The notes under the pieces: model-generated
The model's input: the letters and a program-made list of their open reading frames with translations, nothing else
The model's database searches: none
What the model was told of the DNA's origin: nothing
Translations under genes and position numbers: made by a program
Shown here: positions 11,623 through 51,509 of the stretch, piece after piece
Numbering within the stretch: the stretch's first letter is position 1
Layout of the letters: each line of letters begins with the position of its first letter
Origin: an uncultured bacterium
GTDB lineage: Bacteria; Patescibacteriota; Minisyncoccia; Phycocordibacterales; PALSA-1337
Reading direction: 5' to 3'
NCBI GenBank assembly: GCA_903872035.1
Contig: CAIQIZ010000021.1
Location: 18,157-82,156, forward strand
DNA length: 64,000 nucleotides

Positions 11623-11682
11623 CAGAAATCCTTCCGTTTGCCGTTGGCCCACAACGCTCAAACAGAAGGATTTCTTTCGCCA
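11623..11682. repeat. Palindromic repeat element, copy A (intergenic, upstream of ftsK): arms GAAATCCTTCCGTTTG / CAAACAGAAGGATTTC around core CCGTTGGCCCACAACGCT
   Basis: Shares the core GCCG(C/T)TGGCCCACA(A/G)CGCTC with copies at 48591, 50546, 51078 and 21198. Its inverted-repeat arms co-vary with copy B. Confidence 0.7.
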
Positions 11683-11724
11683 CGCTCATTCACTGGCAAC
11701 TGATAACACGATTTCTATTCTCAT

Positions 11725-14088
11725 ATGCTATTATTAGAGATTATGGCAAAGAAGAAAGAAAAGGACTTGGGAAAAAAGATCAGATTTTGGGATGAGATGC
11801 GCGATGAGACGGTACAGGTGATACTCTCCATATTCTCCTTCGTAATCACCATATTGACCTTGTTGGCGGCTTTTTATCATGGCGACAACAGTAACTATGC
11901 CGGTCCGATCGGCAACTTTTTCTATACTTATATGACAAAGCTTTTTGGCATCGGCTATTTCCTTGTTCCGATGGCTTTCGCCATGCTCGGTGTCTCATTC
12001 CTTCAAGGATTAAAGAAAAAGATAGAGATATCCAAGGTGCTCGGCGTCTTTCTCTTCTTCATCACCGGATTAGGCCTATTGAATATCGCCTACTCTGACG
12101 CTGGTGGCATAGTCGGTCGAACGATCGACTACCCGCTCGTGAAACTGCTCGATACCATTGCGAGCGCGATCCTCTTGGCCGCCATCCTCATTGTCGGAGT
12201 GATCATGACATTCAACTTGTATTTCACCTTCGCCGATCTACGAGAATGGAAAGAGGAAAGGAAGCTAAGACTGGAAGCAAAAGGTAAAAAGGAAGATGTC
12301 GGCAAAACAACCTCTGGTATAGACAAGAGCGAAGAGGAGTTCATAGCTCAAGCGGTAGCAAAGGCCAAGAGCGGTGGAGAATTGACGGCCCGAGAAGCCG
12401 AGGCGGCAGCTGCCAAAGCCCGTCTCGACGCAATGGAAAACAAGAAAGCAAAGACTGGAAAGCCTTTGGACACTGACGATCTTTCCGACTTCAAGACATT
12501 GGGGCTTTCGGCTGTCGCCTTGCCGCATCTCTTACCTTTCACTCCCCCACCTCTGACCTTGCTCGAAAAAGATCGTGGCAAGCCGGAGACCGGAGATATC
12601 AAAGCTAACGCTAATATAATCAAACGAACGCTGCAGAACTTCGGGATAACGGTAGAAATGGATGAGATTTCCATAGGCCCATCGGTCACTCGCTATGCCC
12701 TGAAACCGGCTGAAGGAGTGAAGCTCTCTCGGATAGTCACTTTGAACAATGATCTTTCCTTGGCTTTGGCAGCCCACCCTATCCGCATCGAAGCACCGAT
12801 CCCGGGAAAATCTCTGGTCGGCATAGAAGTACCGAACACTGCCAAGACTACCGTCGGATTGGCAACCCTTCTTTCCTCACCTGATTTTCAGGAATCAGAG
12901 AAGCCTCTATACATGTCGCTTGGTAAAGACATCACCGGAATGGCCCACTTCGCCAATCTAAGCAAAGCTCCACACATGCTCATCGCTGGAACTACTGGTT
13001 CTGGAAAATCGGTTACCATTCACGCACTTATAACTTCCCTCTTGTACCGCAACTCTCCCGAGAATATGAAGTTCATCATGATCGACCCAAAACGCGTGGA
13101 GCTGACTTTGTACAACAAGATTCCCCACCTTCTCACTCCAGTCATCACTGATCCAAAGAAGGCTATCCTGGCTCTGAAATGGGCAGCCAAAGAGATGAGC
13201 CGCCGATACGACATTTTGGAAAAGAACGCGGCTCGCGACATCGATTCATACCACAAGACGATCTTGGCGCCGGCATTGGCAGCCTGGAGCAAGGAGGAAG
13301 GAGCAAACAGGAAGAAGGAAGGGGATCCTGGCTCCTCACTCCTAGCTCCTAGCTCCTTGCCCGAGACAATGCCGTTCATTGTGATCGTCATCGATGAGTT
13401 GGCTGATATCATGCAGACCTACCCACGCGAACTGGAAGCAGCTATAGTTCGGTTGGCGCAGATGAGCCGGGCCGTCGGCATCCATCTTGTCATCTCCACC
13501 CAAAGACCGAGTGTCAACGTCATCACCGGTCTCATCAAGGCGAATATCCCTTCTCGCATCGCCCTACAAGTCTCTTCGCAGATCGATTCACGGACTATCC
13601 TCGATCAAATGGGCGCCGAAAAGTTGCTTGGCGCTGGCGATATGCTCTATCTGGGCGGCGAGATGTCCAAGCCGGTCCGCTTGCAATCAGCTTTCATCTC
13701 CGAATCTGAAGTCAAACGCGTCGTCAAATTCCTGACCGACCAATATCGCGACGAGATCATGAATGAGATCAACTTGACCCCGACAGAAGCCGGAGCTTCA
13801 GCTGCTTTCGATGCCATGACCGGAGACGACTCTCTGGAAGAGGAAGATGAGCTCTACGAGGCCGCTCGAGAAGAAGTCACCTCTGCCGGCAAAGCTTCAA
13901 CATCGTATATTCAAAGAAAATTGGGAGTCGGCTATTCGCGGGCCGCCAAGCTCATGGATCTCCTGGAAGAACATGGTGTCATCGGGCCTGCTAATGGATC
14001 TAAGCCTAGAGAGATCATCGGAGTCGGAGCAGGACTTGAGCAGGAAGTTCCAAAAATTGAAACTACTGAAACCACAGAAAGTTCATAA
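11725..14088 (+). CDS. ftsK: DNA translocase FtsK/SpoIIIE
   Basis: N-terminal TM helices; Walker A MLIAGTTGSGKSV; Walker B VIVIDELAD; C-terminal gamma wHTH domain. An in-frame low-complexity insert GDPGSSLLAPSSLP (nt about 13321-13362) is encoded by a CTCCTAGCTCC repeat. Alternative start at 11743. Confidence 0.85.
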   Translation: MLLLEIMAKKKEKDLGKKIRFWDEMRDETVQVILSIFSFVITILTLLAAFYHGDNSNYAGPIGNFFYTYMTKLFGIGYFLVPMAFAMLGVSFLQGLKKKIEISKVLGVFLFFITGLGLLNIAYSDAGGIVGRTIDYPLVKLLDTIASAILLAAILIVGVIMTFNLYFTFADLREWKEERKLRLEAKGKKEDVGKTTSGIDKSEEEFIAQAVAKAKSGGELTAREAEAAAAKARLDAMENKKAKTGKPLDTDDLSDFKTLGLSAVALPHLLPFTPPPLTLLEKDRGKPETGDIKANANIIKRTLQNFGITVEMDEISIGPSVTRYALKPAEGVKLSRIVTLNNDLSLALAAHPIRIEAPIPGKSLVGIEVPNTAKTTVGLATLLSSPDFQESEKPLYMSLGKDITGMAHFANLSKAPHMLIAGTTGSGKSVTIHALITSLLYRNSPENMKFIMIDPKRVELTLYNKIPHLLTPVITDPKKAILALKWAAKEMSRRYDILEKNAARDIDSYHKTILAPALAAWSKEEGANRKKEGDPGSSLLAPSSLPETMPFIVIVIDELADIMQTYPRELEAAIVRLAQMSRAVGIHLVISTQRPSVNVITGLIKANIPSRIALQVSSQIDSRTILDQMGAEKLLGAGDMLYLGGEMSKPVRLQSAFISESEVKRVVKFLTDQYRDEIMNEINLTPTEAGASAAFDAMTGDDSLEEEDELYEAAREEVTSAGKASTSYIQRKLGVGYSRAAKLMDLLEEHGVIGPANGSKPREIIGVGAGLEQEVPKIETTETTESS

Positions 14089-14117
14089 AGTCAGAAAGTT
14101 TTAAAGTTCGTAAAGTC

Positions 14118-14462
14118 ATGAAGATTGAAAGATTCGAAGACATAATAACCTGGCAGAAAGCTAAGGAACTTAGTTTGCTTTGTTATGTACTCTTTAAGAA
14201 CAATAAGGACTTTAAATACAGAGATCAGATACTATCTGCGGTTGTTTCTATTATGAATAATATCGCCGAGGGATTCGAAAGAAAAGGAAATGTGGAATTA
14301 AAACGATTCCTATTTATAGCAAAAGGTTCTTCGGGTGAAGTTAGATCTATGCTATATTTGGCCCTCGAATTGAAATATATTTCCGAGCAAGATTTTAATA
14401 AATGCTATAACCTTGCTTTAGATGTGTCCAAAATGCTTTCTGGCTTTATTAAGACTTTATGA
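14118..14462 (+). CDS. Four-helix-bundle protein of the 23S rRNA intervening-sequence protein / Avd family (PF05635, TIGR02436-like)
   Basis: ITWQKAKEL...NIAEGFERKG..ELKRFLFIAKGSSGEVRSMLYLALEL.YI matches the conserved pattern of the family. Flanked by inverted AAAGTT/CTTTATGAAC-type repeats at 14077-14117 and 14454-14500. Confidence 0.75.
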   Translation: MKIERFEDIITWQKAKELSLLCYVLFKNNKDFKYRDQILSAVVSIMNNIAEGFERKGNVELKRFLFIAKGSSGEVRSMLYLALELKYISEQDFNKCYNLALDVSKMLSGFIKTL

Positions 14463-14481
14463 ACTTTCTAACTTGTCACTT

Positions 14482-14907
14482 TACGAACTTATGACTTTGA
14501 CTCGCACCAACACCCTTCGTCTTATCCGATTCATCGGCATCGGTCTCATCGTGACATTAATAGTGGTTTACGCTATCTGGCGCTCTTTGAATTACGCCCG
14601 TGGACCCGAGATAGATGTCTTCGATCCGTCGAATGGATCTTCCATGAGTTCCTCAACAGTCGCTATCCATGGACGCGCCCTACGTGTAAATAACTTATTT
14701 TTGAATGGAAATGCGGTTTCGGTCGATCAGCAAGGCAATTTCAGCGAGACGGTCATCGTCTTTCCCGGCATGAACGTCCTTACATTGACCGGACAGGATC
14801 AATTCGGAAGGAATACAAGAAAAGAATTGGAAATCGTCGGAATGGTTAATCTACCGATGGCTCATTCATTGATCCCGCCTGTGACATCGACTAGCACGCA
14901 GCAATAG
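14482..14907 (+). CDS. Hypothetical membrane-anchored protein (the track ORF starts at 14422 and overlaps the upstream gene; the likely start is MTLTRTN at 14482)
   Basis: N-terminal TM LIRFIGIGLIVTLIVVYAIW, then a soluble domain. No recognisable family. Confidence 0.45.
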   Translation, partial: YELMTLTRTNTLRLIRFIGIGLIVTLIVVYAIWRSLNYARGPEIDVFDPSNGSSMSSSTVAIHGRALRVNNLFLNGNAVSVDQQGNFSETVIVFPGMNVLTLTGQDQFGRNTRKELEIVGMVNLPMAHSLIPPVTSTSTQQ

Positions 14908-15030
14908 TTCGTAAAGCTAGAAAGTTTGTAAAGTTCATAAAGCCTTTGAAAGCTGACTTTCGGTGCGATACTTTATGAACTTTTAAACTTGTAACTTTCA
15001 AACTTCTGCTGTTGTAACTTTTCATAAAAT
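14906..15030. repeat. Intergenic hairpin repeat of the AAAGTT / CTTTATGAAC family (solo inverted repeat without ORF)
   Basis: GTTTGTAAAGTTCATAAAG ... CTTTATGAACTTTTAAAC inverted repeat. The 10-mer CTTTATGAAC is shared with repeats at 14077-14117, 14454-14500 and 18464-18565. Confidence 0.6.
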
Positions 15031-18463: not shown

Positions 18464-18565
18464 TTATTTATAAGTTAGAAAGTTTACAAGTTTGAAAGTT
18501 GCAAGTTATTTTATGCCGGACTTTATGAACCTTCTAACTTGATGAACTTTATAAACTGTTAATGT
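18464..18565. repeat. Intergenic AAAGTT / CTTTATGAAC-family hairpin repeat between rpsF and ssb
   Basis: AAGTTAGAAAGTT ... AACCTTCTAACTT inverted repeat plus CTTTATGAAC / GATGAACTTTATAAAC. Confidence 0.55.
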
Positions 18566-19071: not shown

Positions 19072-19399
19072 ATTGTTTTGCAGTCAGCTACCTGTCTATT
19101 TACAGGACCTCTATTCGCATTGAGACCATCTCCGGCAGGTGGGATGGGTCCCAAGTGGCAAAATCAAGGACTTACTGCGATTACGTACTGTTATTAATGT
19201 ATTCACGAGACTACCACACAAATGCCCTGCCCTGCAAGAGCTAGAGGCCCTAAGAGCTTACTAAATCAGTATGAAGAAAGGTTAAAAATTGTCTCAAGAA
19301 ACGATAAAAAATGTCTCAAGAAAGCGTGAAGAGGAACGCGAATGGCCATGTCCCACTTCAAACGGGCCCACCGTTCTGAAGCAGGACATAGCCATTCGC

Positions 19400-20248
19400 T
19401 TATACTAACTTAAAGAATCGCTTCGCATTCGCTAGAACTTGTTTGGCCACGACTTCTTCTGATTGGCACTTGATCATGGCCAAACTTTTCACAGCTTCGA
19501 TGACATAGGCGGGTTCATTGCGCTTGCCACGGTAAAGTTTCGGGGCAACGAACGGGCAATCGGTTTCAGTCATAATGCGATCAAGAGGGACATATCTGAT
19601 GACTTCGTCGTAATTGCGAGCGAAGGTGATCACGCCAGTAAACGAGAATGCGTAGCCAAGATCCAAAAAAGGCCTAGCTTCTTCTATGGTTCCAGCAAAA
19701 AAATGTAGGTCACCTTTGACTTTGGATCTCTCTTTGATGATTTGGTAAGCATCATTGTAAGCCGACCCAGTTGATGCTTTTTCCGGATTGCGCAAGTGAA
19801 GCATCAACGGCTTACTAACTTCATTTGCGACATCTATCATCGTTTCGAATGTTTGGCGCTGCTTCTTGGTAGACTCTTCATTCAAGCGATAATAATCCAG
19901 ACCACATTCACCTATAGCCACGACTTTCGGGTCACGGGCTAGGTCGACATAAGCTTGCTTATCCACAGCTTCTCCCCTTGATGTGAACTCTTTACCACCT
20001 TCCCCCAGTTCCTGTGTATCATGATGGGAAGCTGTTGTGTGAATGGGATGTAGACCGACAGCAGCAAACATATTCTCATGTTTATGAGCCAATTCAATGG
20101 CTATCCGCGAGGTATCGATTTGAGTGCCGACGGTGATCATTGCCACCCCCGCTTCTTGGGCACGTTTGATGACCTCCTCCCTATCGGAATCGTAGGCGGA
20201 AAAATTCACGTGACCATGAATGTCTATGTAAGAATATGGTTTTGACAT
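19400..20248 (-). CDS. tatD: TatD-family metal-dependent DNase/hydrolase
   Basis: IDIHGHVNF...; HxH and conserved Glu/His/Asp positions of the TIM-barrel TatD family. Confidence 0.75.
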   Translation of the reverse strand: MSKPYSYIDIHGHVNFSAYDSDREEVIKRAQEAGVAMITVGTQIDTSRIAIELAHKHENMFAAVGLHPIHTTASHHDTQELGEGGKEFTSRGEAVDKQAYVDLARDPKVVAIGECGLDYYRLNEESTKKQRQTFETMIDVANEVSKPLMLHLRNPEKASTGSAYNDAYQIIKERSKVKGDLHFFAGTIEEARPFLDLGYAFSFTGVITFARNYDEVIRYVPLDRIMTETDCPFVAPKLYRGKRNEPAYVIEAVKSLAMIKCQSEEVVAKQVLANAKRFFKLV

Positions 20249-20260
20249 AAGAACACTGAT

Positions 20261-21838
20261 TTATTTTCTCATAAAGAGCGGTGCTTCAGGCATCTTGTTC
20301 TTTTCCACCAGTCCAACGATCTTTGCAGCAGTCTCAGGAAGGATCGGTAACAGCATCGTTCCGATCATGTGCAAGCGAGCAAGTAATTCCTTGATATCTT
20401 TTTCTGCACCAGCTCTGTCTTCTTTGATCTTCTTAAACGGTTGTCGTTCTTGGACGATCTTGTCAGTGGCTCCAATAAGATCCCAAATGGAATTACTGGC
20501 TTGCTGAATATCGTATTTATCTAGGCCCTCCGAATACTTCTCCAACAAAGTCTTGTACTCAGCAGATTCAGCAAATTCTTTCTCTGCCACCAAATCGTAT
20601 TTGATGCCATTGGTTTCGGCCATCTTCAAAATCCGACTGGTCAAATTACCTAACCCATTAGCCAAGTGTGCATTGAAAGACTCTTTGAATTTATCCGGCG
20701 AATATGCACTATCTTCAAAAGGATGGAGCTCACGCGCAACGTAATAACGCAGAGCATCCGTTCCGTATTCTTTGACGATATCCAATGGGTTTACCGCATT
20801 ACCGAGAGATTTGGACATCTTGACTCCCCCTTCACCTGTAATGAATCCGTCAATGATGATCTGTTTCGATGGTGGGAGCTTCACGGCCATGAGCATGGCT
20901 TGCCACATTGCTGACTGTTGGCGAAGATTGTCCTTTCCGCAATACTGTACAGCACCACCTGACTCGACCCACCATTTGTCGAACTTCTTCATATCAGTCG
21001 GCCAACCAATGGTGGAAATGTAATTGACCAAAGCATCGAACCAGACGTACATGACATGAGCTGGATCGTTCGGAACCGGAATGCCCCAAGGCATCTTTGT
21101 GGCCAATCTCGAGACGCTAAAATCTTCTAGGCCACGCTCAACAAAAGCTCTGATCTCATTTAAACGAGAACTTGGTACGACGAATGGAGTCGTGACAGGA
21201 GAACCGTCTCCGTCTCGCCGCTCTCCCACTCCGCTCGAGCCGGAGACGCTTCCCCGGCCATAGAGATCCATTAAAGGTTTCTGGTAAACACTGAAGCGGA
21301 AAAAATAATTTTCTTCTTCATAGACTTCCAATTCCATCAAAGGATGAAGCGGGCACTTGCCTTCGACAAGCTCCGATTCTGTTTTTTCCAGTTCACAGCC
21401 GACGCAATATTTGATCTTGTAATTCTTTTTGTAGATCAGGCCATTCTTGTCGGCGATCTTCCAGAATTCCTGCGCCGCAGCTATATGATCAGTATCGGTT
21501 GTACGGACGAATTTAAATGTGATCCCTGCTACATTTTCAGCGATACCGAGCAACGGCAACAATTCCTTGAATTTGGCGGCTGCTTCATCGACATATTCTT
21601 GCGGCTCTTTGTGATTTTGTTTGGCTTTTTGGAATATTTTCAATCCGTGTTCATCTGTTCCAGTATTAAAGAATACCTCGTGACCAGCCAAATTCTTGGC
21701 GCGAGCGATGATATCGGCACGGATAAGCTCCATGGCAAAACCGATATGCGGTTCAGCATTTACATAAGGTAAAGTGGTGGTTATGTAAAATGGTGGTTTC
21801 TTTGATCCTGTGGCCGTTTTTGAAGGGTTTTTTGTCAT
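20261..21838 (-). CDS. metG: Methionyl-tRNA synthetase (core form, no C-terminal tRNA-binding domain). Carries an in-frame palindromic-element insertion
   Basis: PYVNAEPHIGFAMELIRADIIAR...GTDEHG and KMSKSLGN class-I motifs. Insert SGSSGVGERRDGDGSPV is encoded at 21198-21255. Confidence 0.85.
   Translation of the reverse strand: MTKNPSKTATGSKKPPFYITTTLPYVNAEPHIGFAMELIRADIIARAKNLAGHEVFFNTGTDEHGLKIFQKAKQNHKEPQEYVDEAAAKFKELLPLLGIAENVAGITFKFVRTTDTDHIAAAQEFWKIADKNGLIYKKNYKIKYCVGCELEKTESELVEGKCPLHPLMELEVYEEENYFFRFSVYQKPLMDLYGRGSVSGSSGVGERRDGDGSPVTTPFVVPSSRLNEIRAFVERGLEDFSVSRLATKMPWGIPVPNDPAHVMYVWFDALVNYISTIGWPTDMKKFDKWWVESGGAVQYCGKDNLRQQSAMWQAMLMAVKLPPSKQIIIDGFITGEGGVKMSKSLGNAVNPLDIVKEYGTDALRYYVARELHPFEDSAYSPDKFKESFNAHLANGLGNLTSRILKMAETNGIKYDLVAEKEFAESAEYKTLLEKYSEGLDKYDIQQASNSIWDLIGATDKIVQERQPFKKIKEDRAGAEKDIKELLARLHMIGTMLLPILPETAAKIVGLVEKNKMPEAPLFMRK
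21198..21255. repeat. Palindromic repeat element, copy E (in-frame inside metG): arms GGAGAACCGTCTCCGTCTCG / CGAGCCGGAGACGCTTCCCC around core CCGCTCTCCCACTCCGCT
   Basis: The core resembles GCCGCTGGCCCACAGCGCTC. The encoded peptide SGSSGVGERRDGDGSP resembles the peptides from copies C and D (NGSGLSVVGQRQTGSVP). Confidence 0.55.
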
Positions 21839-25377: not shown

Positions 25378-26361
25378 CTATTTTCGTGCCTTCATACCCA
25401 ATGATGAAACAATCTTATGTGTATTTCCATGCTTTAGCATTCCCAGATATGAAGCAACCGTCGCCGGCTTTGGATTGTTTAGGAGGGCCTTAATCATTCG
25501 ACGTTTTGTAGTTGTGCGCAATATTCTATGACTGGGAAAATTGATCCACCCGAGAAAATCGATACCGGATGAGTATGTCGCGATAGAGACTTTATCAGGA
25601 TGCAGATCCAGCAAGAGATTCTGTTTCAGAAACGCGCGGATATGTTTCAAAACTTCCTCGATAACGGCTCGGTCGGTATTCATGACAATGAAGTCATCCG
25701 CGAACCGTATGTAATATTTCTCCTTAACCTCGTGCTTCATATACTGGTCAAATTCATTCATGAAAATATTGACCAGCAGTTGAGAAGTCAGATTCCCAAG
25801 CGGCAATCCCTTGCCGGGGATCACCGAATCGAAGCTCTCGACGATTCTTCTCAATAACCAGAGCGTGTCATCGCCGACGTTATGTCGCTTTACGACCTCA
25901 AACAATCGCGCATGATCAATGGAGGCGAAGAATTTTCTGACATCGCATTTTAGGACCCAGCAGGTTTGACTATCATTTCGGCTAGCTCTCCGATATAGCT
26001 CCAGAAACCTTCTTATAGCTTTATGGGTTCCTTTTTCATTCCGGCATGAATAAGAATCGTGGATGAACAGCCTGTTAAAATATGGATACAATACCCGGTA
26101 AACGGCGTGATGAAGAAGTCTATCTCGAACAGTCGCTTTGTGAATCTTTCTAGGTTTTGGGTCGGAAATGTTGAATTCCTCATAGCCGCCGTGTTCGTAC
26201 GTCCTATCTTTCAGATCCGCGTGCAAATCAAATATATTTTCTGACAAATGCATGGAAAATTCCATAACGTCCTTCCGACCACTTTTGCCACATAAAAATT
26301 CCTGCCATGCGACAAAAAGGTTATCCGGCGATATAATTGTTTGGTATAGATCTATATACAC
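25378..26361 (-). CDS. DGR reverse transcriptase
   Basis: RT motifs: PKPRKIHKATVRDRLLHHAV (motifs 1/2). Motif 4 is GLPLGNLTSQLLVNIFMNEFD, with the DGR-specific [ILV]GxxxSQ in place of QGxxxSP. Motif 5 is YIRFADDFIV. Thumb motif GIDFLGW. Confidence 0.85.
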   Translation of the reverse strand: MYIDLYQTIISPDNLFVAWQEFLCGKSGRKDVMEFSMHLSENIFDLHADLKDRTYEHGGYEEFNISDPKPRKIHKATVRDRLLHHAVYRVLYPYFNRLFIHDSYSCRNEKGTHKAIRRFLELYRRASRNDSQTCWVLKCDVRKFFASIDHARLFEVVKRHNVGDDTLWLLRRIVESFDSVIPGKGLPLGNLTSQLLVNIFMNEFDQYMKHEVKEKYYIRFADDFIVMNTDRAVIEEVLKHIRAFLKQNLLLDLHPDKVSIATYSSGIDFLGWINFPSHRILRTTTKRRMIKALLNNPKPATVASYLGMLKHGNTHKIVSSLGMKARK

Positions 26362-26407
26362 ATTCTCTCATGATGCCCCCCCCCCGCAATCAAAAATACC
26401 GACAGTC

Positions 26408-26764
26408 GTGCATAAGCAAAAAGAAGCATATTCATTATGGGTCAGGCTTCATCACAATTTTCCCCGGACAGAACGGCTCGGTCTTGGCCGGAAAATAGAC
26501 TCGGCCTTTCTCGATCTCTTGGAATGGACATTTGTCGGCGCGTACCTGCCTCCTGAACAAAAGATCCCTGTTTTGAACAAGGCCATGACAAGGCTGGATA
26601 TCGTAAAGTTCTTTACGCAAATATCGTGGGAAAACAAGCTTATACAAAACGAGCAATACATAGCACTATCTCTCATGTTAGAAGAAATCGGTCGACAGCT
26701 CGGCGGCTGGAAGAAAGGCCTGCAAACAAAACTCCCCAACCTTGAGCCGGGGAGAAAGACTTGA
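26408..26764 (+). CDS. avd: Accessory variability determinant (Avd) four-helix-bundle protein, encoded antisense to TR/RT. GTG start proposed; the track ORF starts at ATG 26252 and would overlap the RT start
   Basis: EAYSLWVRLHHNFPRTERLGLGRKIDSAFLDLL...IALSLMLEEIGRQLGGWKKGL matches the Avd pattern (...FP..E...LG.QI.....LL.....EVGRMLGGW). The stop at 26764 abuts the TR. Confidence 0.6.
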   Translation: MHKQKEAYSLWVRLHHNFPRTERLGLGRKIDSAFLDLLEWTFVGAYLPPEQKIPVLNKAMTRLDIVKFFTQISWENKLIQNEQYIALSLMLEEIGRQLGGWKKGLQTKLPNLEPGRKT

Positions 26765-26768
26765 GTTT

Positions 26769-26876
26769 CGGGAGAACACCTGGTTGCCATCATTCCACCT
26801 GTTCGGATTCTCAACCGGATTCGCGTTCACGTTCCAGCCGTCGTCGTACCAGTTCACGTTGACCGCGCGGAGCACA
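26769..26876 (-). repeat. DGR template repeat (TR)
   Basis: 108 bp, 81% identical to VR. All 20 differences are plus-strand T in TR (A on the minus/coding strand). TR translates to Asn-rich AVNVNWYDDGWNVNANPVENPNRWNDGNQVFSRNS. Confidence 0.85.
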
Positions 26877-27243: not shown

Positions 27244-27993
27244 TCAGGCTGTCGCCGGAACCGGAGTTTCCGAGGGTTTGAGAGCGGAATTGCGGGAGAA
27301 CACCTGGACGCCACCATCCCACCCGCACGGATACCCAACCGGACCCGCGAGCACGCCCCAGCCGCCGCCGTACCAGCACACGTCGACCGCGCGGAGCACA
27401 AACCATTGATCTTTGATCTCAAATAGGTACTGCGAATCCTTGACCTCTTCAAAGATCTCCCTTCCTTCAAGGCCAACGTAGCTGAAACGCTTGTCATCGA
27501 GTTTCTTCACCGGTTGGGGGATGTAGCGGATATTCGCATACCCGTTAGTCAGAAGCAGACCAGCGGCGCTTTTGGGACCGTCCTGTTGATTCTCCATGTC
27601 GCGGAACATTTCACCAAGAGAAGAGACGGCTTTGGGCACACCGCCCAGCTCGAGGATAATGTCCTTGTCATACATGTACCTGGGCAAGGTGAAGACGTTG
27701 GGTGCCTTCGTCGGCGGGAGATCTTCAACCGTGTTCCAGAACCAATTCATGAAGTTGTTCCGGACTTCGCAGATCTTCACCTTAGCATTGCGGCTGGTGT
27801 CGACCTTGAAGTGATCCCTGACAACAAACTTGCCTTGATTCCAAGATTGAGAAGCGAGCCAATCGGTCAGAGGTCCTTGAAGGCGACCGGACTTAGCCGC
27901 ATCAATAATGTTTTGAGGGACGAGATCTGTCCGATTCCAGTTGACACAGGTTATGAGAGTCGCACCGGCGGTTGCTATCGTTTGATTATTCAT
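27244..27993 (-). CDS. DGR target (variable) protein with C-terminal C-type-lectin/FGE-like fold carrying the VR
   Basis: The C-terminus LRAVDVCWYGGGWGVLAGPVGYPCGWDGGVQVFSRNS is encoded by the VR. The TR encodes the same frame with Asn (AAC) at the variable positions. Confidence 0.8.
   Translation of the reverse strand: MNNQTIATAGATLITCVNWNRTDLVPQNIIDAAKSGRLQGPLTDWLASQSWNQGKFVVRDHFKVDTSRNAKVKICEVRNNFMNWFWNTVEDLPPTKAPNVFTLPRYMYDKDIILELGGVPKAVSSLGEMFRDMENQQDGPKSAAGLLLTNGYANIRYIPQPVKKLDDKRFSYVGLEGREIFEEVKDSQYLFEIKDQWFVLRAVDVCWYGGGWGVLAGPVGYPCGWDGGVQVFSRNSALKPSETPVPATA
27293..27400 (-). repeat. DGR variable repeat (VR) at the 3' end of the target gene
   Basis: Aligns base-for-base with TR 26769..26876 (offset 524). 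The mismatches are confined to TR-adenine positions. Confidence 0.85.
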
Positions 27994-33099: not shown

Positions 33100-33732
33100 T
33101 TACATCATCGACTCTTTCAATGCCTTATTTATATGTTTGTTGAGGATCGTCCGCTTCTCTTTAAGCAGATCGACCAGATCACTAGTGATCTCAAACGACC
33201 GGATGTGGCCGCTCAGTTCCAAATCATCGCCGATGTAACCCAGCCAATGAAGGATGCGCGCGACCGTCAATGATTCGATAGCGGCCAATTGAGCAGCATT
33301 CAAATCTTCACGCTCACCAACAAAGTCCACGCAAGCTTTTATAACATCGAACACTTCAGGGTGTGCTTCTTCACCTTGAAGTAACCGTCTCAAGAGCTGC
33401 GCCAGCCTTGCGATTAAACTTTGAGAAATGGCCATTTCGCCCCCGCTTCGCGGATGGACTTTCCCCGACTGCGTAGCACGAAGGGGAAACGTCCGGAGCG
33501 AAAAGGGGGCGGCAGATGTGAGCCGCCACATCTCCCTTCCCTTTACGAGCGAAAACATTCCCATTGCGTGTTCTTGGGTATAGTATCGCAGCTTTGATCT
33601 CTCCAGACGGATCCCTTGGGCAGCAGCCATTATCAGACCAAATTCACGTGTGAATATGAAAAGCATCTTCCCTGCTTCTCCATAAGGTCGTGCTTGGATT
33701 ATGAATCCTGGAGTTGTGTGAATGTGATGCAT
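33100..33732 (-). CDS. recO: DNA repair protein RecO-like (short form) with an internal hairpin-rich insert
   Basis: N-terminal OB-fold PGFIIQARPYGEAGKMLFIFTREFGLIMAAAQGIR resembles RecO. Nucleotides 33440-33550 contain nested palindromes (GGACTTTCCCC...GGGGAAACGTCC; AGATGTG...CACATCT). Confidence 0.5.
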   Translation of the reverse strand: MHHIHTTPGFIIQARPYGEAGKMLFIFTREFGLIMAAAQGIRLERSKLRYYTQEHAMGMFSLVKGREMWRLTSAAPFSLRTFPLRATQSGKVHPRSGGEMAISQSLIARLAQLLRRLLQGEEAHPEVFDVIKACVDFVGEREDLNAAQLAAIESLTVARILHWLGYIGDDLELSGHIRSFEITSDLVDLLKEKRTILNKHINKALKESMM

Positions 33733-33804
33733 AGGTTATGCGCAAGGAAACGTTACGGCGAGAGCGCTGTGGTAGAGCGGCGAGCCGGAATGTTTCCTTG
33801 CGCA

Positions 33805-36800
33805 TTACTTCTTAATATCAAACTTCTCACCAAATTCAATAGCTGACAAGCGGGTAGCCGCTTTGATAGCTTGTTCGTTCTTACTGATCAAAGATTTCAT
33901 GTCTTCCGTCGCGACCAATACCGCCATATCGTTGACCGTCAATCCTTTCTCTTTGCGGAGGTCTTGGATCTTACGGAGCAATTCGCGGAGCTCGCCTTCT
34001 TCTTTAAGCTCAGGAGTAAGGACAGTATCCAATTCGACATCGGTTTCCATACCACCGTCGAATACAACTTCTTTTACATTAACTTCATCTGTTATGAGCC
34101 CAAGGAGTTCAGAATTTAAATCCTTAATTTTTGAATCCTTAATTTTTAACTTACCCAATGGTTGACGTACATTTATCTTTGCCGTCATCCTGGCTTCTAA
34201 ACCTTTGGAAGCGATAGACCGGACTAATTCCATGCTAGTCAATAATTTCTCATCGACTTTCCCTGCTTTCGGCCATTCTTCGAGGTGTACGCTTTCTTTT
34301 TCGCCTCCAACGCCTTGGTACAAGAAGTCAGCAAAGAAAGGCGTGAGCGGCGCCATGACTTTCGCCAATGATTGCAACACGAATTGTGTGGTAGCCAAAG
34401 CCGCTTGCTTGTCTTCAGCATTTTCTCCTTTGAATCGGTCGCGGGAACGTCGAAGATACCATTGGGAAAGATCTCCGACGAAATCTCGAATCGCTCGTGC
34501 AGGTTCGAAGAATTTGTAGTTGTCCAATCCGGTGGTCGTGGTTTCTATGAGCTGATTGAGTCTGGCGACGATCCACCGATCTAGAACATGAGATGTATTT
34601 GAAAGCTTGAAAATGTTTCCGGACCGAGCGCTGTGGGCCAGCGGCGAGGCGGAAGTATTTTCAAGCGATTCATCCACATATAGCTTATAGAACGACAGCA
34701 CATTCCCCGCCAAATTAAAGACCTTTTTATTTATCTCATCCACAGTCTTCTGATCAAAATTCTTGGAATCACCAGGCTGATTGACAGAATACATCCAGAA
34801 CCGCAGCGCATCAGCTCCATAGGCGTCCATCATCTCGAAAGGATTGACGACATTGCCGATAGATTTCGACATCTTCTTTCCTTGAGGATCGAGGATATGA
34901 CCGAGGCAGATGACATTCTTATAAGCCTTGCCTCTGCCCATGAGCACCCCGACTGCGTGCAATGTGTAGAACCATCCACGCGTCTGATCTATGGCTTCAG
35001 AAATAAAATCAGCTGGGTATGGGAATTTCTCCTTGCCGATCAAGCCGTGTTCTTTGCCACCAAGAACATGATCCTGGGCAAAAGGCATAGACCCGCTATC
35101 GAACCAGACATCCATGACTTCTTTGACTCGGCTCATTTCTCCACCACATTCGCAGGTCAATTTTACTTCGTCTATATAAGGACGGTGAAGGTCGAGCTCA
35201 AAATCAGGATTGTGAGGAAGGATCGAAAAGTCGAGTTTCCTAGCTTCCGCTTTTTGAACATACTTCAACTTATTCCAATCAGCCGCCTCGCTCTTTTCTA
35301 GTCCAGCGGCGGCACTGATAAGCATCATAGCCGGACATCCGTGAGTAACGATCAAAATCGTACGGCCTTGATATTTATTCTCCATTTCATAGAGGAAATC
35401 TCCGACCCTCTTTCTGACATCTCTCCAACTCTCAACCCCATCATCAGCCTTATTGAATCTGTCTTCGTTTATCGGAAACTTCTTATCGAATTTCGCCATA
35501 TCCTTGCCTTCCCAAGAGCCCATCCCCATTTCACGGACTCGCTCATCGACGATAACCTGCCCAGCTTTGAGACCGAGCGTATCAGCGACAAGATGGGCGG
35601 TCTCTTTGGTCCGCATGATCGGTGAAGTTATCACCAAATCTATCCCTGATTTTTTTAAGGCTTCGGCGGTTTTTGATACGTTTTCTTTACCCAACGCAGT
35701 CAAATGGCTCACCATCTCCAAACCGCTGTTCAAAGTCATTTTTACATTATTCTCCGCCTCGCCATGCCGCATAACATAGTAAGTATTGCGCGGCTTCTTG
35801 GAGACATCAGCCACTGATCCAGCAACTTTCCATTTCTTGCATTTGTCGCAAACCCAGACTGGTAAAGGCGTACCCCAATAGCGCTCGCGGGAAATGGCCC
35901 AATCCTTGACTTCGCGGAGCCATTCACCAAAACGACCTTCCTTTATATGCTCCGGCTCCCAATTGATGCCTTCATTTTCTTTGACCAGCTTGTGCCGCAA
36001 GTCCGACATTTTGATGTACCACGAATCACGGGCAAAATAGATGAGCGGTGTGTGACAGCGCCAACAGAAAGGATAGGTGTGCTCGTATTTTTCTTTACTG
36101 AATAGGATGCCACGGTGCGCCAAGTCTTTGATGATCTCCACGTCGGTCGCCTCATTCTTGACGAATTTGCCGGCCAAAAATCCAGCTTCATTTTTGAAAG
36201 TACCGTCTTCTTTTACCAGATGATATTTCGGCAGGCCTACCTTCGTGCCCAATTCAAAATCGTCCTGACCATACATTACAGCGGTGTGCACTATTCCAGT
36301 CCCATCTTCAGTAGTGACAAAATCAGCAGGATATACTTTGTAAGCATTCGACAGCTTCTCTTTTTCCGGACCGGAAATAGATTCTTTGAGAAATGGATAA
36401 AGGGGTTCGTATGAGAGACCGACCAATTCTTTGCCTTTGAAGGTCTCGATTATTTCCGGCTTCGTGTCTTTAAAAACTGCCTCCAGGCGATTTTTGGCAA
36501 GAATGTATGTCGTGGTCGCGTTTTTTGAATCTCCTTCCTCCTTACTGCTTCCTTCTTCCTCCATTTTTCTAACTTTCACATAATCGATCTTCTCCCCTAC
36601 CGCCAAGCCAACGTTGCCCGGCAATGTCCACGGCGTCGTCGTCCAAGCCAACAAATAGGTCTCGCTTGATCCTTCCTCCTTACTGCTCCCTCCTTCCTGC
36701 TTCAAGACCTTGAATTTCACTGTGACTGAAAGATCCTTGACCGTCTCATATCCTTGCGCCAATTCGTGCGACGACAAAACAGTTTGGTCATGAGGACACC

Positions 36801-37419
36801 AAGGGACGACTCGGAAATCTTTGTAGAGCAGATCCTTTTCGTGGACCGTCCGCATGATATTCCAAAGCGCTTCTATGTAAGCTGGCTTGTAGGTGATGTA
36901 GGCATTCTTCAAATCCACCCAGTAACCCATACGATTGGTAAGAAGTTCCCATTCACGCATGTAAGTCCAAACGCTCTCTTTACACTTCTCGTTGAAAGCA
37001 GCGATGCCGTATTCTTCGATCTCCTTTTTGAACTTGAAGCCGAGCTCCTTTTCGACTTGGATCTCTACTGGCAATCCATGAGTATCCCAACCGCCTTTAC
37101 GGCGGACATGGAATCCTTGCATTGTCTTGTACCTAGGAATGGCGTCTTTGAAAGCACGGGCTTCCAAATGATGGATGCCTGGACGACCGTTGGCGGTTGG
37201 TGGACCCTCATAAAAAACGAATTCACCTTTGGGCGCCTTTCCTTCTTGTGATTTATTCAGAGTCTTATCAAAAATCCCCTTCTCTTTCCAGAAGGCCATG
37301 ATCTTCTCCTCGCGCTCGGCGTGAGAGCTTTTGGGCATCGGCGGATTTTTCACGACGACCGGCGTTTTCTGCTCCGTAGGCATCTTTTGGCTTTTCTTGT
37401 GTTCAGAATCTGCTTGCAT
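33805..37419 (-). CDS. ileS: Isoleucyl-tRNA synthetase with an embedded histidine-phosphatase (PGAM-like) domain and two short EEGSSKEEG inserts
   Basis: P.ANG.PGIHH (HIGH-like), KMSKSIGN, WTTTPWTLPGN editing-domain motif, C-terminal zinc/anticodon region. Residues about 545-735 carry RHGE...SP.MRT.ETA...HG phosphatase motifs. Total length 1204 aa. Confidence 0.85.
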   Translation of the reverse strand: MQADSEHKKSQKMPTEQKTPVVVKNPPMPKSSHAEREEKIMAFWKEKGIFDKTLNKSQEGKAPKGEFVFYEGPPTANGRPGIHHLEARAFKDAIPRYKTMQGFHVRRKGGWDTHGLPVEIQVEKELGFKFKKEIEEYGIAAFNEKCKESVWTYMREWELLTNRMGYWVDLKNAYITYKPAYIEALWNIMRTVHEKDLLYKDFRVVPWCPHDQTVLSSHELAQGYETVKDLSVTVKFKVLKQEGGSSKEEGSSETYLLAWTTTPWTLPGNVGLAVGEKIDYVKVRKMEEEGSSKEEGDSKNATTTYILAKNRLEAVFKDTKPEIIETFKGKELVGLSYEPLYPFLKESISGPEKEKLSNAYKVYPADFVTTEDGTGIVHTAVMYGQDDFELGTKVGLPKYHLVKEDGTFKNEAGFLAGKFVKNEATDVEIIKDLAHRGILFSKEKYEHTYPFCWRCHTPLIYFARDSWYIKMSDLRHKLVKENEGINWEPEHIKEGRFGEWLREVKDWAISRERYWGTPLPVWVCDKCKKWKVAGSVADVSKKPRNTYYVMRHGEAENNVKMTLNSGLEMVSHLTALGKENVSKTAEALKKSGIDLVITSPIMRTKETAHLVADTLGLKAGQVIVDERVREMGMGSWEGKDMAKFDKKFPINEDRFNKADDGVESWRDVRKRVGDFLYEMENKYQGRTILIVTHGCPAMMLISAAAGLEKSEAADWNKLKYVQKAEARKLDFSILPHNPDFELDLHRPYIDEVKLTCECGGEMSRVKEVMDVWFDSGSMPFAQDHVLGGKEHGLIGKEKFPYPADFISEAIDQTRGWFYTLHAVGVLMGRGKAYKNVICLGHILDPQGKKMSKSIGNVVNPFEMMDAYGADALRFWMYSVNQPGDSKNFDQKTVDEINKKVFNLAGNVLSFYKLYVDESLENTSASPLAHSARSGNIFKLSNTSHVLDRWIVARLNQLIETTTTGLDNYKFFEPARAIRDFVGDLSQWYLRRSRDRFKGENAEDKQAALATTQFVLQSLAKVMAPLTPFFADFLYQGVGGEKESVHLEEWPKAGKVDEKLLTSMELVRSIASKGLEARMTAKINVRQPLGKLKIKDSKIKDLNSELLGLITDEVNVKEVVFDGGMETDVELDTVLTPELKEEGELRELLRKIQDLRKEKGLTVNDMAVLVATEDMKSLISKNEQAIKAATRLSAIEFGEKFDIKK
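35217..35787 (-). other. Histidine phosphatase (phosphoglycerate-mutase superfamily) domain inserted within IleRS
   Basis: YYVMRHGEAENN (RHG catalytic His), ITSPIMRTKETA, EMGMGSWEG, ILIVTHG (second His). Lies between the IleRS segments ...VWVCDKCKKWKVAGSV and DLHRPYIDEVKLTCECGG. Confidence 0.7.
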
Positions 37420-48305: not shown

Positions 48306-48485
48306 TTAGAACAATAGTGTCAGAAGCTTAGAAAAAACGAAATCTGACAGACCAAGCAAAGCGGCGGTGGCCAGAGAAACCAAGATCACCAAAGACGTGA
48401 ACCTGATAGTTTGATCGCGTGTAGGCCAATTGACATGGCTCATCTCACCACGTGTTTCCTTAACATAATTGCTGAATCTATTCAT
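48306..48485 (-). CDS. secE: Preprotein translocase subunit SecE
   Basis: MNRFSNYVKETRGEMSHVNWPTRDQTIRFTSLVILVSLATAALLGL is a classic SecE. The track ORF extends to 48554. Confidence 0.8.
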   Translation of the reverse strand: MNRFSNYVKETRGEMSHVNWPTRDQTIRFTSLVILVSLATAALLGLSDFVFSKLLTLLF

Positions 48486-48590
48486 GGTATTGGTCCTTTT
48501 AGACGCTTTTTGATTAAAAAATCCCGCAGGGGGATAACATGTGTATAGTAGCATGCTGATAACAGTAAATCAAGGCCTGCTTGAAGTCTC

Positions 48591-48649
48591 CAGAAATCTT
48601 TCCGTTTGCCGCTGGCCCACAGCGCTCAAACGAAAAGATTTCTTTCGCC
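48591..48649. repeat. Palindromic repeat element, copy B (intergenic): arms GAAATCTTTCCGTTTG / CAAACGAAAAGATTTC around core CCGCTGGCCCACAGCGCT
   Basis: Near-identical to copy A, with a compensatory arm change (C:G in A, T:A in B). Confidence 0.7.
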
Positions 48650-48664
48650 TTCCAAGCCCGACTG

Positions 48665-50453: not shown

Positions 50454-50477
50454 AAAAATAGTCTAGCACACCTCATA

Positions 50478-51509
50478 TTACGCCGACCACCTGGCGAATA
50501 TTCCACAAGGCAACAAACGATGTTGTTGATAATTTACATGGGCGTCGTCCGGAACGGATCCGGTTTGCCGCTGGCCCACAACGCTCAAACCTGATCCGTT
50601 CCTCCCTCCTTCTTCAATAGCCAATTCTCCCATCTCAATCCTTCCCCCAAATTTCTCCACAAGCGGTTTCAAAATATTCTCATAAGCGACCGGGGAATAT
50701 CCCGAGGCATAGCCATTTATTATAAAGAATAACGGCTTGTCAGCGAGAATTTTTATACAATCATCGATAAGAGGTAGCAGGCTCTCTTCGATCTTCCATA
50801 ATTCATTGTCAGGACCATGACCGAAAGCAGGCGGGTCCATAATAATACCCGCGTACTTGCGACCACGTTTGACTTCACGCTTTACAAAAGTATGAGCATC
50901 GTCGAGGATCCAGCGAATCGGTTTCTTTTCCAATCCCGACAATTCAGCATTCTCTCGCGCCCATGAAATAGCGACTTTGGAACCATCGACGTGAACGACT
51001 TTGGCTCCAGCTTGAGCACAAGCCAGCGAAGCACCGCCTGTGTAGCCGAACAAATTAAGAATTTCAATTCCATCGACGTCGTCCGGAACGGCTCCGGTTC
51101 GCCGCTGGCCCACAGCGCTCTCACCGGACCCGTTCCTTCCTCCTTCCTCCTTCCTGCCTGCTTCAATGCAACTCCTCAACCATTCCCAATTCACAGCCTG
51201 CTCTGGAAAAAGTCCCACGTGCTTGAACGATGAAGGTCTGATCCAGAATTTCAATCCACCAAATGCGATCTGCCATTTGTCAGAAGTAGTCTTTCTCATA
51301 TTCCAGCTATTCGTAAATGCACCATCAGCTTTCTTCCATTCATCAGCCGACAATCTCTTGTGCCACAAAGCCTGTGGATCAGGTCGCGCCAAAGTGAACT
51401 GGCCGAAACGTTCCAGCTTCTCCCCTTCTCCAGAGTCGAGCAGCTCGTAATCCGGATTGGAATCTGTTATCTGAATATTTGAAATCTTGTTCATTTTTCG
51501 TATGCGCAC
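50478..51509 (-). CDS. Class I SAM-dependent (rRNA) methyltransferase, RlmI/YccW-like (PF10672), carrying two in-frame palindromic-element insertions
   Basis: LNLFGYTGGASLACAQAGAKVVHVDGSKVAISWARENAELSGL...IIMDPPAFGHG matches the RlmI catalytic domain. The inserts encode GGRNGSGESAVGQRRTGAVPDD and GGRNGSGLSVVGQRQTGSVPDD. Confidence 0.6.
   Translation of the reverse strand: MRIRKMNKISNIQITDSNPDYELLDSGEGEKLERFGQFTLARPDPQALWHKRLSADEWKKADGAFTNSWNMRKTTSDKWQIAFGGLKFWIRPSSFKHVGLFPEQAVNWEWLRSCIEAGRKEEGGRNGSGESAVGQRRTGAVPDDVDGIEILNLFGYTGGASLACAQAGAKVVHVDGSKVAISWARENAELSGLEKKPIRWILDDAHTFVKREVKRGRKYAGIIMDPPAFGHGPDNELWKIEESLLPLIDDCIKILADKPLFFIINGYASGYSPVAYENILKPLVEKFGGRIEMGELAIEEGGRNGSGLSVVGQRQTGSVPDDAHVNYQQHRLLPCGIFARWSA
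50546..50602. repeat. Palindromic repeat element, copy C (in-frame in the methyltransferase gene): arms GGAACGGATCCGGTTTG / CAAACCTGATCCGTTCC around core CCGCTGGCCCACAACGCT
   Basis: 57 nt (a multiple of 3); same core as copies A and B with different, self-complementary arms. Confidence 0.7.
51078..51136. repeat. Palindromic repeat element, copy D (in-frame in the methyltransferase gene): arms GGAACGGCTCCGGTTCG / CTCACCGGACCCGTTCC around core CCGCTGGCCCACAGCGCT
   Basis: Shares the flanking GTCGTCCGGAACGG with copy C. Followed by a CCTTCCTCC low-complexity tail similar to the ileS inserts. Confidence 0.65.

What the first reader, a model, noticed from the sequence alone, without database searches (positions are those of the whole stretch)
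11623..51136. Palindromic repeat family with a conserved core and co-varying arms, inserted in-frame in housekeeping genes as well as intergenically
**Copies seen: five**
- A: 11623-11682, intergenic, upstream of ftsK.
- B: 48591-48649, intergenic, between secE and the SIMPL gene.
- C: 50546-50602, in the RlmI-like gene.
- D: 51078-51136, in the RlmI-like gene.
- E: 21198-21255, more diverged, inside metG.

**Structure**
- All share a core close to GCCGCTGGCCCACAGCGCTC, flanked by 16-20 nt inverted-repeat arms.
- The arm sequences differ between copies (A/B type GAAATCYTTCCGTTTG; C/D type GGAACGGMTCCGGTTYG; E type GGAGAACCGTCTCCGTCTCG) but remain self-complementary.
- Copy A versus copy B shows a compensatory C:G to T:A change, which argues for selection on a hairpin structure.

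**Coding consequence**
- The three coding copies are in frame and add similar Gly/Ser/Arg-rich peptides to otherwise conserved enzymes: GGRNGSGLSVVGQRQTGSVPDD twice in the methyltransferase and SGSSGVGERRDGDGSPV in MetRS.
- This is the behaviour described for Rickettsia palindromic elements (RPEs).
- I am not aware of such a family having been described for this kind of genome.
Basis: seen in the sequence. Interest (0 to 1): 0.85.

Follow-up and report, generated by a model that had tools for sequence, protein, structure and literature searches.

The report
Hairpin repeats inserted in-frame in genes
A tiny-genome candidate-phyla bacterium (Paceibacterota) carries a family of 60-85-base hairpin repeats sitting between genes and also in-frame inside essential enzymes, where they add about 22-residue surface loops, as Rickettsia palindromic elements do.

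Summary

- **Copies.** All five copies are where stated. The window holds three more: F, G (inside IleRS, opposite orientation) and H. A ninth lies just outside the window.
- **Organism.** A Patescibacteria (CPR) bacterium of the Paceibacterota.
- **Structure.** Each copy is one long hairpin with a 5-bp inner stem and a near-invariant G-TGGGC-C loop. The 16-33-bp arms differ between copies but stay paired: 85% of cells against 33-45% in slid controls.
- **Strand bias.** Mismatches are G·T on one element strand 46 times and A·C 9 times (p = 4e-7). One specific single strand is constrained, whatever the host gene's direction.
- **Spread.** Nineteen further copies occur in other low-GC metagenomic contigs, inside SecA, SMC, LigA, TsaD, RsmH and RsmI.
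- **Reading frame.** Sixteen of 17 coding copies use the codon phase symmetric about the hairpin centre.
- **Orthologues.** Close MetRS, IleRS and RlmI-like orthologues lack the inserts. These lie in variable loops that AlphaFold2 models with low confidence.
- **Negatives.** I found no Rfam match, no transposase in the window, no target duplication and no literature for CPR.

**Best explanation:** a selfish, RPE/REP-like hairpin element whose mobilising enzyme is unknown.

The parts
11610..11689 (-). Copy A. Intergenic, between a divergent HTH-like gene (10737..11543, minus strand) and ftsK (11725..14088, plus strand). The strand given here and for the other copies is the one that reads GAGCGYTGTGGGCCARCGGC, the better-folding 'rc-core' strand.
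   Evidence: 76.3 bits; RNA -41.9 against -33.1 kcal/mol for the other strand; z = -6.3.
19329..19408 (-). Copy H, new. It overlaps the stop codon of tatD (19400..20248, minus strand) and lies upstream of rpsF. The inner stem has diverged (ACGG/CCGT) but the TGGGC loop is kept.
   Evidence: (43.6 bits, E = 6e-9), and (-47.7 kcal/mol, z = -8.6).
21187..21266 (-). Copy E, inside metG (20261..21838, minus strand), sense orientation. It encodes ...SVSGSSGVGERRDGDGSPVTT.... It is a decayed copy: the loop reads TGGGA and the inner stem is lost.
   Evidence: 60.7 bits; z = -2.2; a clean gap against PDB 2csx; absent from the other 119 of the 120 closest orthologues.
33732..33811 (+). Copy F, new. It fills the spacer between the ileS stop (33805) and the recO start (33732). 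The loop is altered to TGGTA.
   Evidence: -45.6 kcal/mol; 71.7 bits.
34596..34675 (+). Copy G, new, inside ileS (33805..37419, minus strand) and antisense to the mRNA. It is translated as ...LENTSASPLAHSARSGNIFKL....
   Evidence: 70.5 bits; unique to this species; the region is a hypervariable linker before the LDxWI motif.
48578..48657 (-). Copy B. Intergenic, 8 nt downstream of the SIMPL gene stop (48665) and upstream of secE (48306..48554, minus strand).
   Evidence: (77.6 bits).
50537..50616 (-). Copy C, in the RlmI-like SAM methyltransferase (50478..51509, minus strand), sense orientation. It encodes GGRNGSGLSVVGQRQTGSVPDD at the tip of a C-terminal beta-hairpin.
   Evidence: 73.8 bits; pLDDT below 50 at residues 304-327.
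51071..51150 (-). Copy D, in the same methyltransferase, sense orientation. It encodes GGRNGSGESAVGQRRTGAVPDD between helix 102-123 and strand 149-153.
   Evidence: 82 nt, 85% identical to C; 74.9 bits; pLDDT below 50 at residues 127-145.

Best explanation
**What it is**
This is a family of short (about 60-85 nt) interspersed hairpin elements of Paceibacterota (CPR/Patescibacteria). It behaves like the Rickettsia palindromic elements and intragenic REPs.

**Shown**
- Each copy is one long imperfect hairpin. It has a near-invariant apical G-TGGGC-C pentaloop, a 5-bp inner stem that itself covaries, a small internal loop, and 16-33-bp arms that differ between copies but stay complementary.
- The whole hairpin, arms included, is the inserted unit. 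In MetRS the extra 20-22 residues match the 66-nt hairpin, and no arm corresponds to ancestral host sequence.
- Copies lie between genes and inside essential genes, in either orientation.
- Coding copies are read in the one codon phase whose boundary falls at the hairpin centre. The palindromic arms therefore give the same kind of small, hydrophilic peptide in both orientations (SAVGQRQ/R in sense, SPLAHSA in antisense). They sit in variable surface loops.

**Inferred**
- The element multiplies through a single-stranded intermediate of one specific strand, either ssDNA or RNA. That strand tolerates G·T (G·U) wobble but not A·C. This would explain why mismatches are wobble on the same element strand regardless of host transcription.
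- The invariant loop is the recognition site of an unidentified trans-acting enzyme. An HUH/Y1-type transposase, as for REP/RAYT and IS200/IS605, is the closest mechanistic model.
- Insertions that break a gene, fall in another phase or hit a structured region are removed by selection. What remains are in-phase loop insertions and intergenic copies. Old copies such as E decay.
For: **Repeat family and structure**
- The repeat family is not due to chance.
- Hairpin stability is supported by z-scores.
- Covariation: 84.9% of cells paired, 25 of 32 pairs with double changes, 0 of 500 shuffles reaching the observed value, slid controls 33-45%. RNAalifold gives 18 of 23 pairs with compensatory changes.
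- The inner stem covaries while the loop stays TGGGC in 8 of 11 copies that were not selected by the exact core.

**Strand asymmetry**
- 46 G·T against 9 A·C, binomial p = 4e-7.
- The better-folding strand is the same in 17 of 19 copies and under DNA energy parameters.
- The direction is the same in copies antisense to their host mRNA.

**Spread**
- 19 more distinct copies occur in about 10 low-GC metagenomic contigs, with different arms.
- Core matches in high-GC genomes have no arms, which serves as a negative control.

**Hosts and phase**
- SecA carries 3 copies, SMC 2 and LigA 2. TsaD, RsmH, RsmI and an RNase J-like protein carry one each. 16 of 17 coding copies are in the symmetric phase.
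- The other phases are often stop-free: 15 and 12 of 27 in sense, 20 and 24 of 27 in antisense.

**Lineage-specific inserts in loops**
-.

**Density**
- 9 copies in about 80 kb of this genome, 4 coding and 5 intergenic.
Against: - No act of transposition was seen.
- Contigs of the same species from other samples are 99.98-100% identical and keep the copies, so no presence/absence polymorphism is available.
- No target-site duplication and no conserved target motif were found.
- No transposase is encoded in the 64-kb window. The only reverse transcriptase belongs to a DGR.
- One Y1_Tnp gene sits on a contig that carries four copies, but it is flanked by unrelated hairpins.
- Orientation relative to the replichore is only 6:3, not the strict bias expected for IS200/IS605-like elements.
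- The G·T asymmetry could equally reflect an in-situ function on that strand.
Confidence: 0.7

Rival explanations
1. The hairpin is a host-serving cis element kept in place by selection, and its spread is secondary. It could be a structured RNA or ssDNA motif that acts as an mRNA 3' stabiliser or terminator, an RNase processing site, or the binding site of a host protein through the invariant G-UGGGC-C loop.
For: - The loop is near-invariant and the stems are maintained by compensatory changes in several divergent organisms.
- Three of the four intergenic copies in the window (B, H, F) start within a few bases of a stop codon, and B and H are in the better-folding sense.
- The wobble bias shows selection on a single strand.
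Against: - About 60% of copies sit inside essential ORFs, in either orientation.
- The strand bias is the same when the favoured strand is antisense to the mRNA (G, L029, L020a, L009b).
- No U-tract follows the hairpins.
- No Rfam family matches.
- Copy A lies between divergent genes.
- Orthologous genes in relatives do without the element.
Confidence: 0.15
2. The family is spread by reverse transcription, SINE-like. The favoured strand is an RNA hairpin copied by a resident reverse transcriptase and integrated. Such enzymes are common in these genomes; a DGR RT lies in this window and another RT in L032.
For: - G·U-type wobble on one strand fits an RNA intermediate.
- RVT_1 genes are present in the window (25378..26361) and in L032.
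Against: - The window's RT is part of a complete DGR whose TR/VR differences are all at adenines. That is a dedicated system with no known role in dispersing repeats.
- The copies show no A-biased substitution pattern.
- The asymmetry is just as well explained with DNA energy parameters.
- There is no poly-A or priming feature and no RT next to most copies.
Confidence: 0.08
3. The element is not mobile. The shared segments are ancient conserved protein sequence, a chance similarity, or a short DNA signal such as an uptake sequence that accumulated by point mutation.
For: The 20-nt core is identical in several organisms. Uptake signals are also found in preferred reading frames inside genes (own knowledge).
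Against: - Orthologues lack the segments, so they are insertions of 60-66 nt and not substitutions.
- The chance expectation is 0.
- The long complementary arms are unexplained by a short signal.
- Density is about 1 per 9 kb, far below that of uptake sequences.
Confidence: 0.02

Closest known systems
Rickettsia palindromic elements (RPE-1 to RPE-10)
   Same: - An interspersed palindromic repeat family in a small, gene-dense genome.
- Roughly half or more of the copies are inserted in-frame in unrelated housekeeping genes, adding a peptide compatible with the fold, with the rest intergenic. RPE behaviour is taken from PMC10969869 and PMC3184786; this family.
- Copies of different ages are present, including decayed ones such as E.
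   Different: - The phylum differs (Patescibacteria against Alphaproteobacteria).
- These elements are shorter: 60-85 nt against about 105-150 bp for RPEs.
- The conserved part here is the apical loop and inner stem, while the arms vary.
- Both orientations are used, in one symmetric codon phase.
- No sequence comparison with RPE consensus sequences was possible.
REP / REPIN elements with RAYT (Y1, HUH) transposases, including intragenic GTAG- and CGTC-tagged REPs
   Same: - Imperfect hairpins are recognised on one strand.
- Intragenic copies are known in several phyla, often in replication and repair genes, encoding 20-30 residues (PMC3733652).
- There is one adjacent inverted doublet in SecA (L020 5625-5785).
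- A Y1_Tnp gene exists on one contig that carries the family.
   Different: - REPs are 20-40 bp with stems of 5-13 bp and an unpaired GTAG or CGTC tag (PMC3733652). Here the stems are 16-33 bp plus an inner stem.
- No consistent tag is present.
- Most copies are intragenic.
- The one Y1_Tnp gene is flanked by different hairpins.
Bacterial MITEs (Correia, ERIC, Nezha and similar)
   Same: Short, non-autonomous, hairpin-forming, sometimes fused in-frame to ORFs (PMC3184786, PMC10969869).
   Different: MITEs have conserved terminal inverted repeats, target-site duplications and a parent IS. Here the termini vary, the centre is conserved, no duplication is seen and no parent IS was found.

Membership tests
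Rickettsia palindromic elements (RPE) | Interspersed repeat that folds as a palindrome or hairpin | tested here: met
Rickettsia palindromic elements (RPE) | In-frame insertion in unrelated protein-coding genes, at sites compatible with the fold, as well as intergenic copies | tested here: met
   17 coding copies in 13 genes. The inserts are absent from orthologues. They lie in low-confidence coil loops.
Rickettsia palindromic elements (RPE) | Sequence relatedness to an RPE consensus and occurrence in Rickettsiales | not testable with these tools
   No RPE sequences were available. The host is Paceibacterota, and the 60-85 nt size differs from the 105-146 bp listed in PMC3184786. I therefore do not file it as an RPE.
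REP / RAYT system | 20-40 bp imperfect palindrome, predominantly extragenic | tested here: not met
   Hairpins are 50-86 nt. 17 of 28 copies are intragenic.
REP / RAYT system | Unpaired GTAG or CGTC tag at one end (PMC3733652) | tested here: not met
   GTAG is present only next to copy A, and CGTC/GACG only next to C and D. No tag is seen in the other copies.
REP / RAYT system | A RAYT (Y1 transposase) gene flanked by members of the family | tested here: inconclusive
   There is none in the window. One Y1_Tnp gene (PF01797, E = 2e-7) lies on L019, which has 4 copies, but it is flanked by AGGTCAGACCTAT hairpins. Only about 200 kb was examined.
MITE | Conserved terminal inverted repeats and target-site duplication | tested here: not met
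   Arm ends differ between copies, and no flanking direct repeats are present.
Known structured RNA families (Rfam 15) | Match to a curated covariance model | tested here: not met
   0 matches at gathering thresholds in the window. Only sub-threshold microRNA-hairpin noise appears on L016 and L020.

The most novel reading that the evidence does not exclude
The element is adapted to live inside genes of gene-dense minimal genomes.
- Its sequence is kept open in the one codon phase that is symmetric about the hairpin centre. It can therefore be translated into a harmless loop in either orientation.
- It is propagated by a strand-specific machinery, not yet identified, that reads the invariant G-TGGGC-C loop.
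- With other palindrome families seen at the same loop in an orthologue, such elements would be a main source of loop insertions and length variation in CPR housekeeping proteins.
Probability: 0.25. Interest if true: 0.8.

Novelty: new variant of a known kind. Interest (0 to 1): 0.62.

Why it matters
- In-frame 'protein-coding palindromes' are described mainly from Rickettsia, with scattered intragenic REPs elsewhere. Finding the same behaviour in the candidate phyla radiation shows it recurs in an unrelated lineage of small, gene-dense genomes. Here about 60% of copies sit in essential genes such as aminoacyl-tRNA synthetases, SecA, SMC and DNA ligase.
- For CPR genomics it gives one source of the variable-length loops seen when housekeeping proteins are aligned. 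It also warns against reading such inserts as functional domains.

Tried and rejected
**Searches that gave nothing useful**
- A genome-contig scan for the core gave only five armless chance hits in high-GC genomes. The species is not among those representatives.
- The core is absent from viral contigs.
- Rfam gave nothing.
- phmmer of a 30-residue insert peptide against 1.84 billion representatives gave one uninformative hit, because the query is too short.
- Searches of the held paper library for such repeats in CPR, Patescibacteria or Parcubacteria found nothing relevant. Ogata 2002 (PMC186582) is not held.

**Leads that did not hold**
- The metagenomic loci and the window share no orthologous genes that would give empty or filled sites.
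- Strain contigs are 99.98-100% identical. An apparent 63-nt insertion in tatD of L031 is a scaffold gap of Ns.
- The idea that arms are inverted copies of the host flank is rejected. The MetRS insert length equals the whole hairpin, and no arm encodes ancestral residues.
- A stop-codon filter alone cannot explain the single reading phase, because the other phases are often open.
- RNA-level excision (intron-like) is rejected. Excision would not require one phase and stop-free copies.

**A generalisation that was only partly borne out**
- I tested whether other orthologues' inserts at the same loops are palindromes. One of three checked is a perfect 33-nt-arm palindrome (L032). The other two show no inverted repeat (L035 and L036).

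**A weak test that gave one lead**
Its flanking hairpins are a different sequence.


Full report
**1. Observation**

The five copies are at the stated coordinates. The 20-nt core with up to 3 mismatches occurs 6 times in the window, against 0 in 100 shuffles. This search adds two copies on the minus strand. F lies between ileS and recO, and G lies inside ileS.

I built a covariance model from 19 copies and ran it without filters. It recovers all seven and adds H (19329-19408, 43.6 bits, E = 6e-9), which overlaps the tatD stop codon.

I extended the genome through public contigs of the same organism. This gave a ninth copy 8-9 kb left of the window (L033 15548-15627, with perfect 25-bp arms). 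The 7.5 kb to the right holds none. That makes 9 copies in about 80 kb, 4 coding and 5 intergenic. If the genome is about 1 Mb, this extrapolates to roughly a hundred copies.

**2. Organism**

Homologues of the three host proteins are all from Patescibacteria: Candidatus Paceibacterota, Parcubacteria and Taylorbacteria.
- The species is absent from the GTDB representative set. The core gave only five armless hits in high-GC genomes.
- Its MetRS is found 100% identical on about 20 contigs from several samples.
- These contigs are 99.98-100% identical to the window and keep the copies.

**3. Anatomy**

I orient each copy on the strand that reads GAGCGCTGTGGGCCAGCGGC. Each is then one long hairpin:
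- Arms of 16-33 bp.
- A small internal loop (AG on one side, G on the other).
- A 5-bp inner stem (CGCTG/CAGCG).
- The pentaloop TGGGC.

Covariation on an ungapped 80-column alignment of 19 copies:

| Measure | Result |
|---|---|
| Cells forming pairs | 84.9% |
| Same, partners slid by 1-3 columns | 33-45% |
| Same, column shuffles | 62.6%; 0 of 500 reach the observed value |
| Pairs with changes on both sides | 25 of 32 |
| RNAalifold pairs with compensatory changes | 18 of 23 |

The inner stem also covaries:
- CGTTG/CAACG in A.
- CGCCG/CGGCG in L012b.
- TGCTG/CAGCA in L020c.
- AACTG/CAGTT in copy I and L023b.
- ACGG/CCGT in H.

The loop stays TGGGC in 8 of the 11 copies that were not selected by the exact core.

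The A/B subfamily shares an outer GGC...GCC stem beyond a purine-rich 3x3 internal loop. This is also seen in L013, L015a, L020b and L023a.

**4. Strand asymmetry**

- In 17 of 19 copies the GAGCG... strand folds better than its complement. The same holds with DNA energy parameters.
- Counting arm mismatches in 27 copies gives 46 G·T on that strand against 9 A·C, which would be G·T on the other strand. The binomial p is 4e-7.
- The direction is the same in sense-coding copies (about 15:4), antisense-coding copies (about 7:2) and intergenic copies (about 20:2).
- The constraint therefore belongs to the element's own strand, not to the host mRNA.
- This cannot separate an ssDNA intermediate from an RNA intermediate.

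**5. Spread**

One scan of metagenome contigs found 24 loci. All those with GC of 0.42-0.50 carry the core between complementary arms of new sequence. All the high-GC hits lack arms, which is a natural negative control. The model found further diverged copies on the same loci. In total there are 28 distinct copies.

Host genes, read from the translations:

| Host | Copies |
|---|---|
| SecA | 3, two of them adjacent and inverted |
| SMC | 2 |
| NAD-dependent DNA ligase | 2 |
| TsaD | 1 |
| RsmH | 1 |
| RsmI | 1 |
| RNase J-like MBL hydrolase | 1 |
| 951-aa P-loop ATPase | 1 |
| SAM methyltransferase | 1 |

The window adds MetRS (1), IleRS (1) and the RlmI-like protein (2).

**6. Reading frame**

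- All 11 sense copies are read as ..S-A-V-G-Q-R-Q/R...
- Five of six antisense copies are read as ..S-P-L-A-H-S-A... The exception is L012b. The L027 copy turned out to lie upstream of the htpX start.
- These two frames share codon boundaries, and one boundary falls exactly at the hairpin centre. The palindromic arms therefore encode similar residues in both orientations.
- The other phases are frequently stop-free: 15 and 12 of 27 in sense, 20 and 24 of 27 in antisense.
- A stop filter therefore predicts only about 47% and 33% use of this phase. By my rough estimate the observed 16 of 17 has a probability near 4e-6, ignoring non-independence such as C and D.
- Selection on the peptide is the likely extra filter. 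The used phase gives small, hydrophilic residues. The other phases give Cys-, Trp- and Pro-rich strings.

**7. The inserts are lineage-specific and lie in loops**

- **MetRS.** The 22 residues fall in a clean gap against Aquifex and Brucella MetRS structures. They are absent from all 120 closest orthologues except the organism's own entry. The ancestral sequence is LYEKNPDFVVP. The insert length equals the 66-nt hairpin, so the arms arrived with the element.
- **IleRS.** The insert lies in a hypervariable linker before the LDxWI motif and is unique to this species.
- **RlmI-like protein.** Both sites are length-variable in orthologues, whose lengths run from 286 to 377 aa. In an AlphaFold2 model (pTM 0.80) the only internal segments below pLDDT 50 are residues 127-145 and 304-327, both coil. 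The first lies between a helix and the first Rossmann strand. The second is at the tip of a beta-hairpin.

**8. What moves it**

This is unknown.
- Pfam scans of nearly all substantial window ORFs (metG and the RlmI-like gene were identified from homologues instead) show housekeeping genes and one DGR, but no transposase.
- No target duplication or target motif is visible.
- A Y1_Tnp (IS200-like or RAYT-like) gene lies on L019, which has four copies. It is flanked by unrelated AGGTCAGACCTAT hairpins.
- The element has no Rfam match and is absent from viral contigs.

**9. Comparison with what is known**

- The behaviour matches Rickettsia palindromic elements (PMC10969869, PMC3184786) and intragenic REPs (PMC3733652).
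- The family fails the REP criteria of size, tag and extragenic location. It also fails the MITE criteria of conserved termini and target duplication.
- RPE membership could not be tested.
- The held paper library returned nothing on such repeats in CPR bacteria.

**10. Verdict**

The finding is real and the RPE-like reading is supported. It is a new variant of a known kind, with three features that make it experimentally tractable: an invariant loop, single-strand wobble bias and a symmetric codon phase. The mobilising mechanism is inferred, not shown.

Noticed in passing
window 25378-27993: A complete diversity-generating retroelement.
- RT at 25378..26361 (minus strand, RVT_1).
- bAvd-like gene within 26252..26764 (plus strand).
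- Template repeat at about 26763-26876 and variable repeat at about 27287-27400, at the 3' end of the target gene 27244..27993 (minus strand).
- Every TR/VR difference is at a TR adenine.
- A 24-nt-arm hairpin (27176-27223) lies just 3' of the target gene.
   Followed up: partly
window 33805-37419 (IleRS residues 548-715): IleRS carries an inserted histidine-phosphatase domain (His_Phos_1, E = 2e-34). All 120 closest Paceibacterota orthologues have the same Pfam domain, so the fusion is widespread in this lineage.
   Followed up: partly
window 36532-36560, 36670-36698 and 51134-51162; also SecA on L020, LigA on L009 and RsmI on L015: A second, non-palindromic in-frame repeat is present. It is a purine-rich, Shine-Dalgarno-like run on the coding strand, encoding (E)EGGSSKEEG or S/G-R-K-E-E-G.
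- The two IleRS copies are 93% identical over 29 nt, lie in two loops, and are absent from orthologues.
- A third run abuts copy D.
- Its origin is unexplained.
   Followed up: partly
L032 6377-6463: In an orthologous RlmI-like gene (P0027, 61% identity, syntenic locus), the same first loop holds a different perfect palindrome. Its arms are 33 nt (TGTCATTCCCGCGAAAGCGGGAATCCAGTGTTG) with a 21-nt spacer, encoding ..SFPRKRES...LDSRFRGND... Two other orthologues with inserts showed no inverted repeat.
   Followed up: partly
L019 5028-5787: A 200-aa Y1_Tnp (IS200-like or RAYT-like) gene at 5155..5757 is flanked by AGGTCAGACCTAT / ATAGGTCTGACCT hairpins. These hairpins occur nowhere else in the fetched loci. 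The gene sits on a contig that carries four copies of the hairpin family.
   Followed up: partly
window 14080-14135, 14454-14482, 14906-14998 and 18520-18565: Short AGTTCRTAAAGT / ACTTTATGAACTT-type repeats flank a '23S rRNA intervening sequence protein' (PF05635) gene at 14118..14462 and recur near rpsF/ssb.
   Followed up: no
L020 5625-5785: Two family copies sit back to back in opposite orientation inside SecA, 1 nt apart. The arrangement resembles a REPIN-like doublet and together they add about 50 residues.
   Followed up: no
window 1-64000: No Rfam family, not even a tRNA, reaches its gathering score anywhere in the 64-kb window.
   Followed up: no
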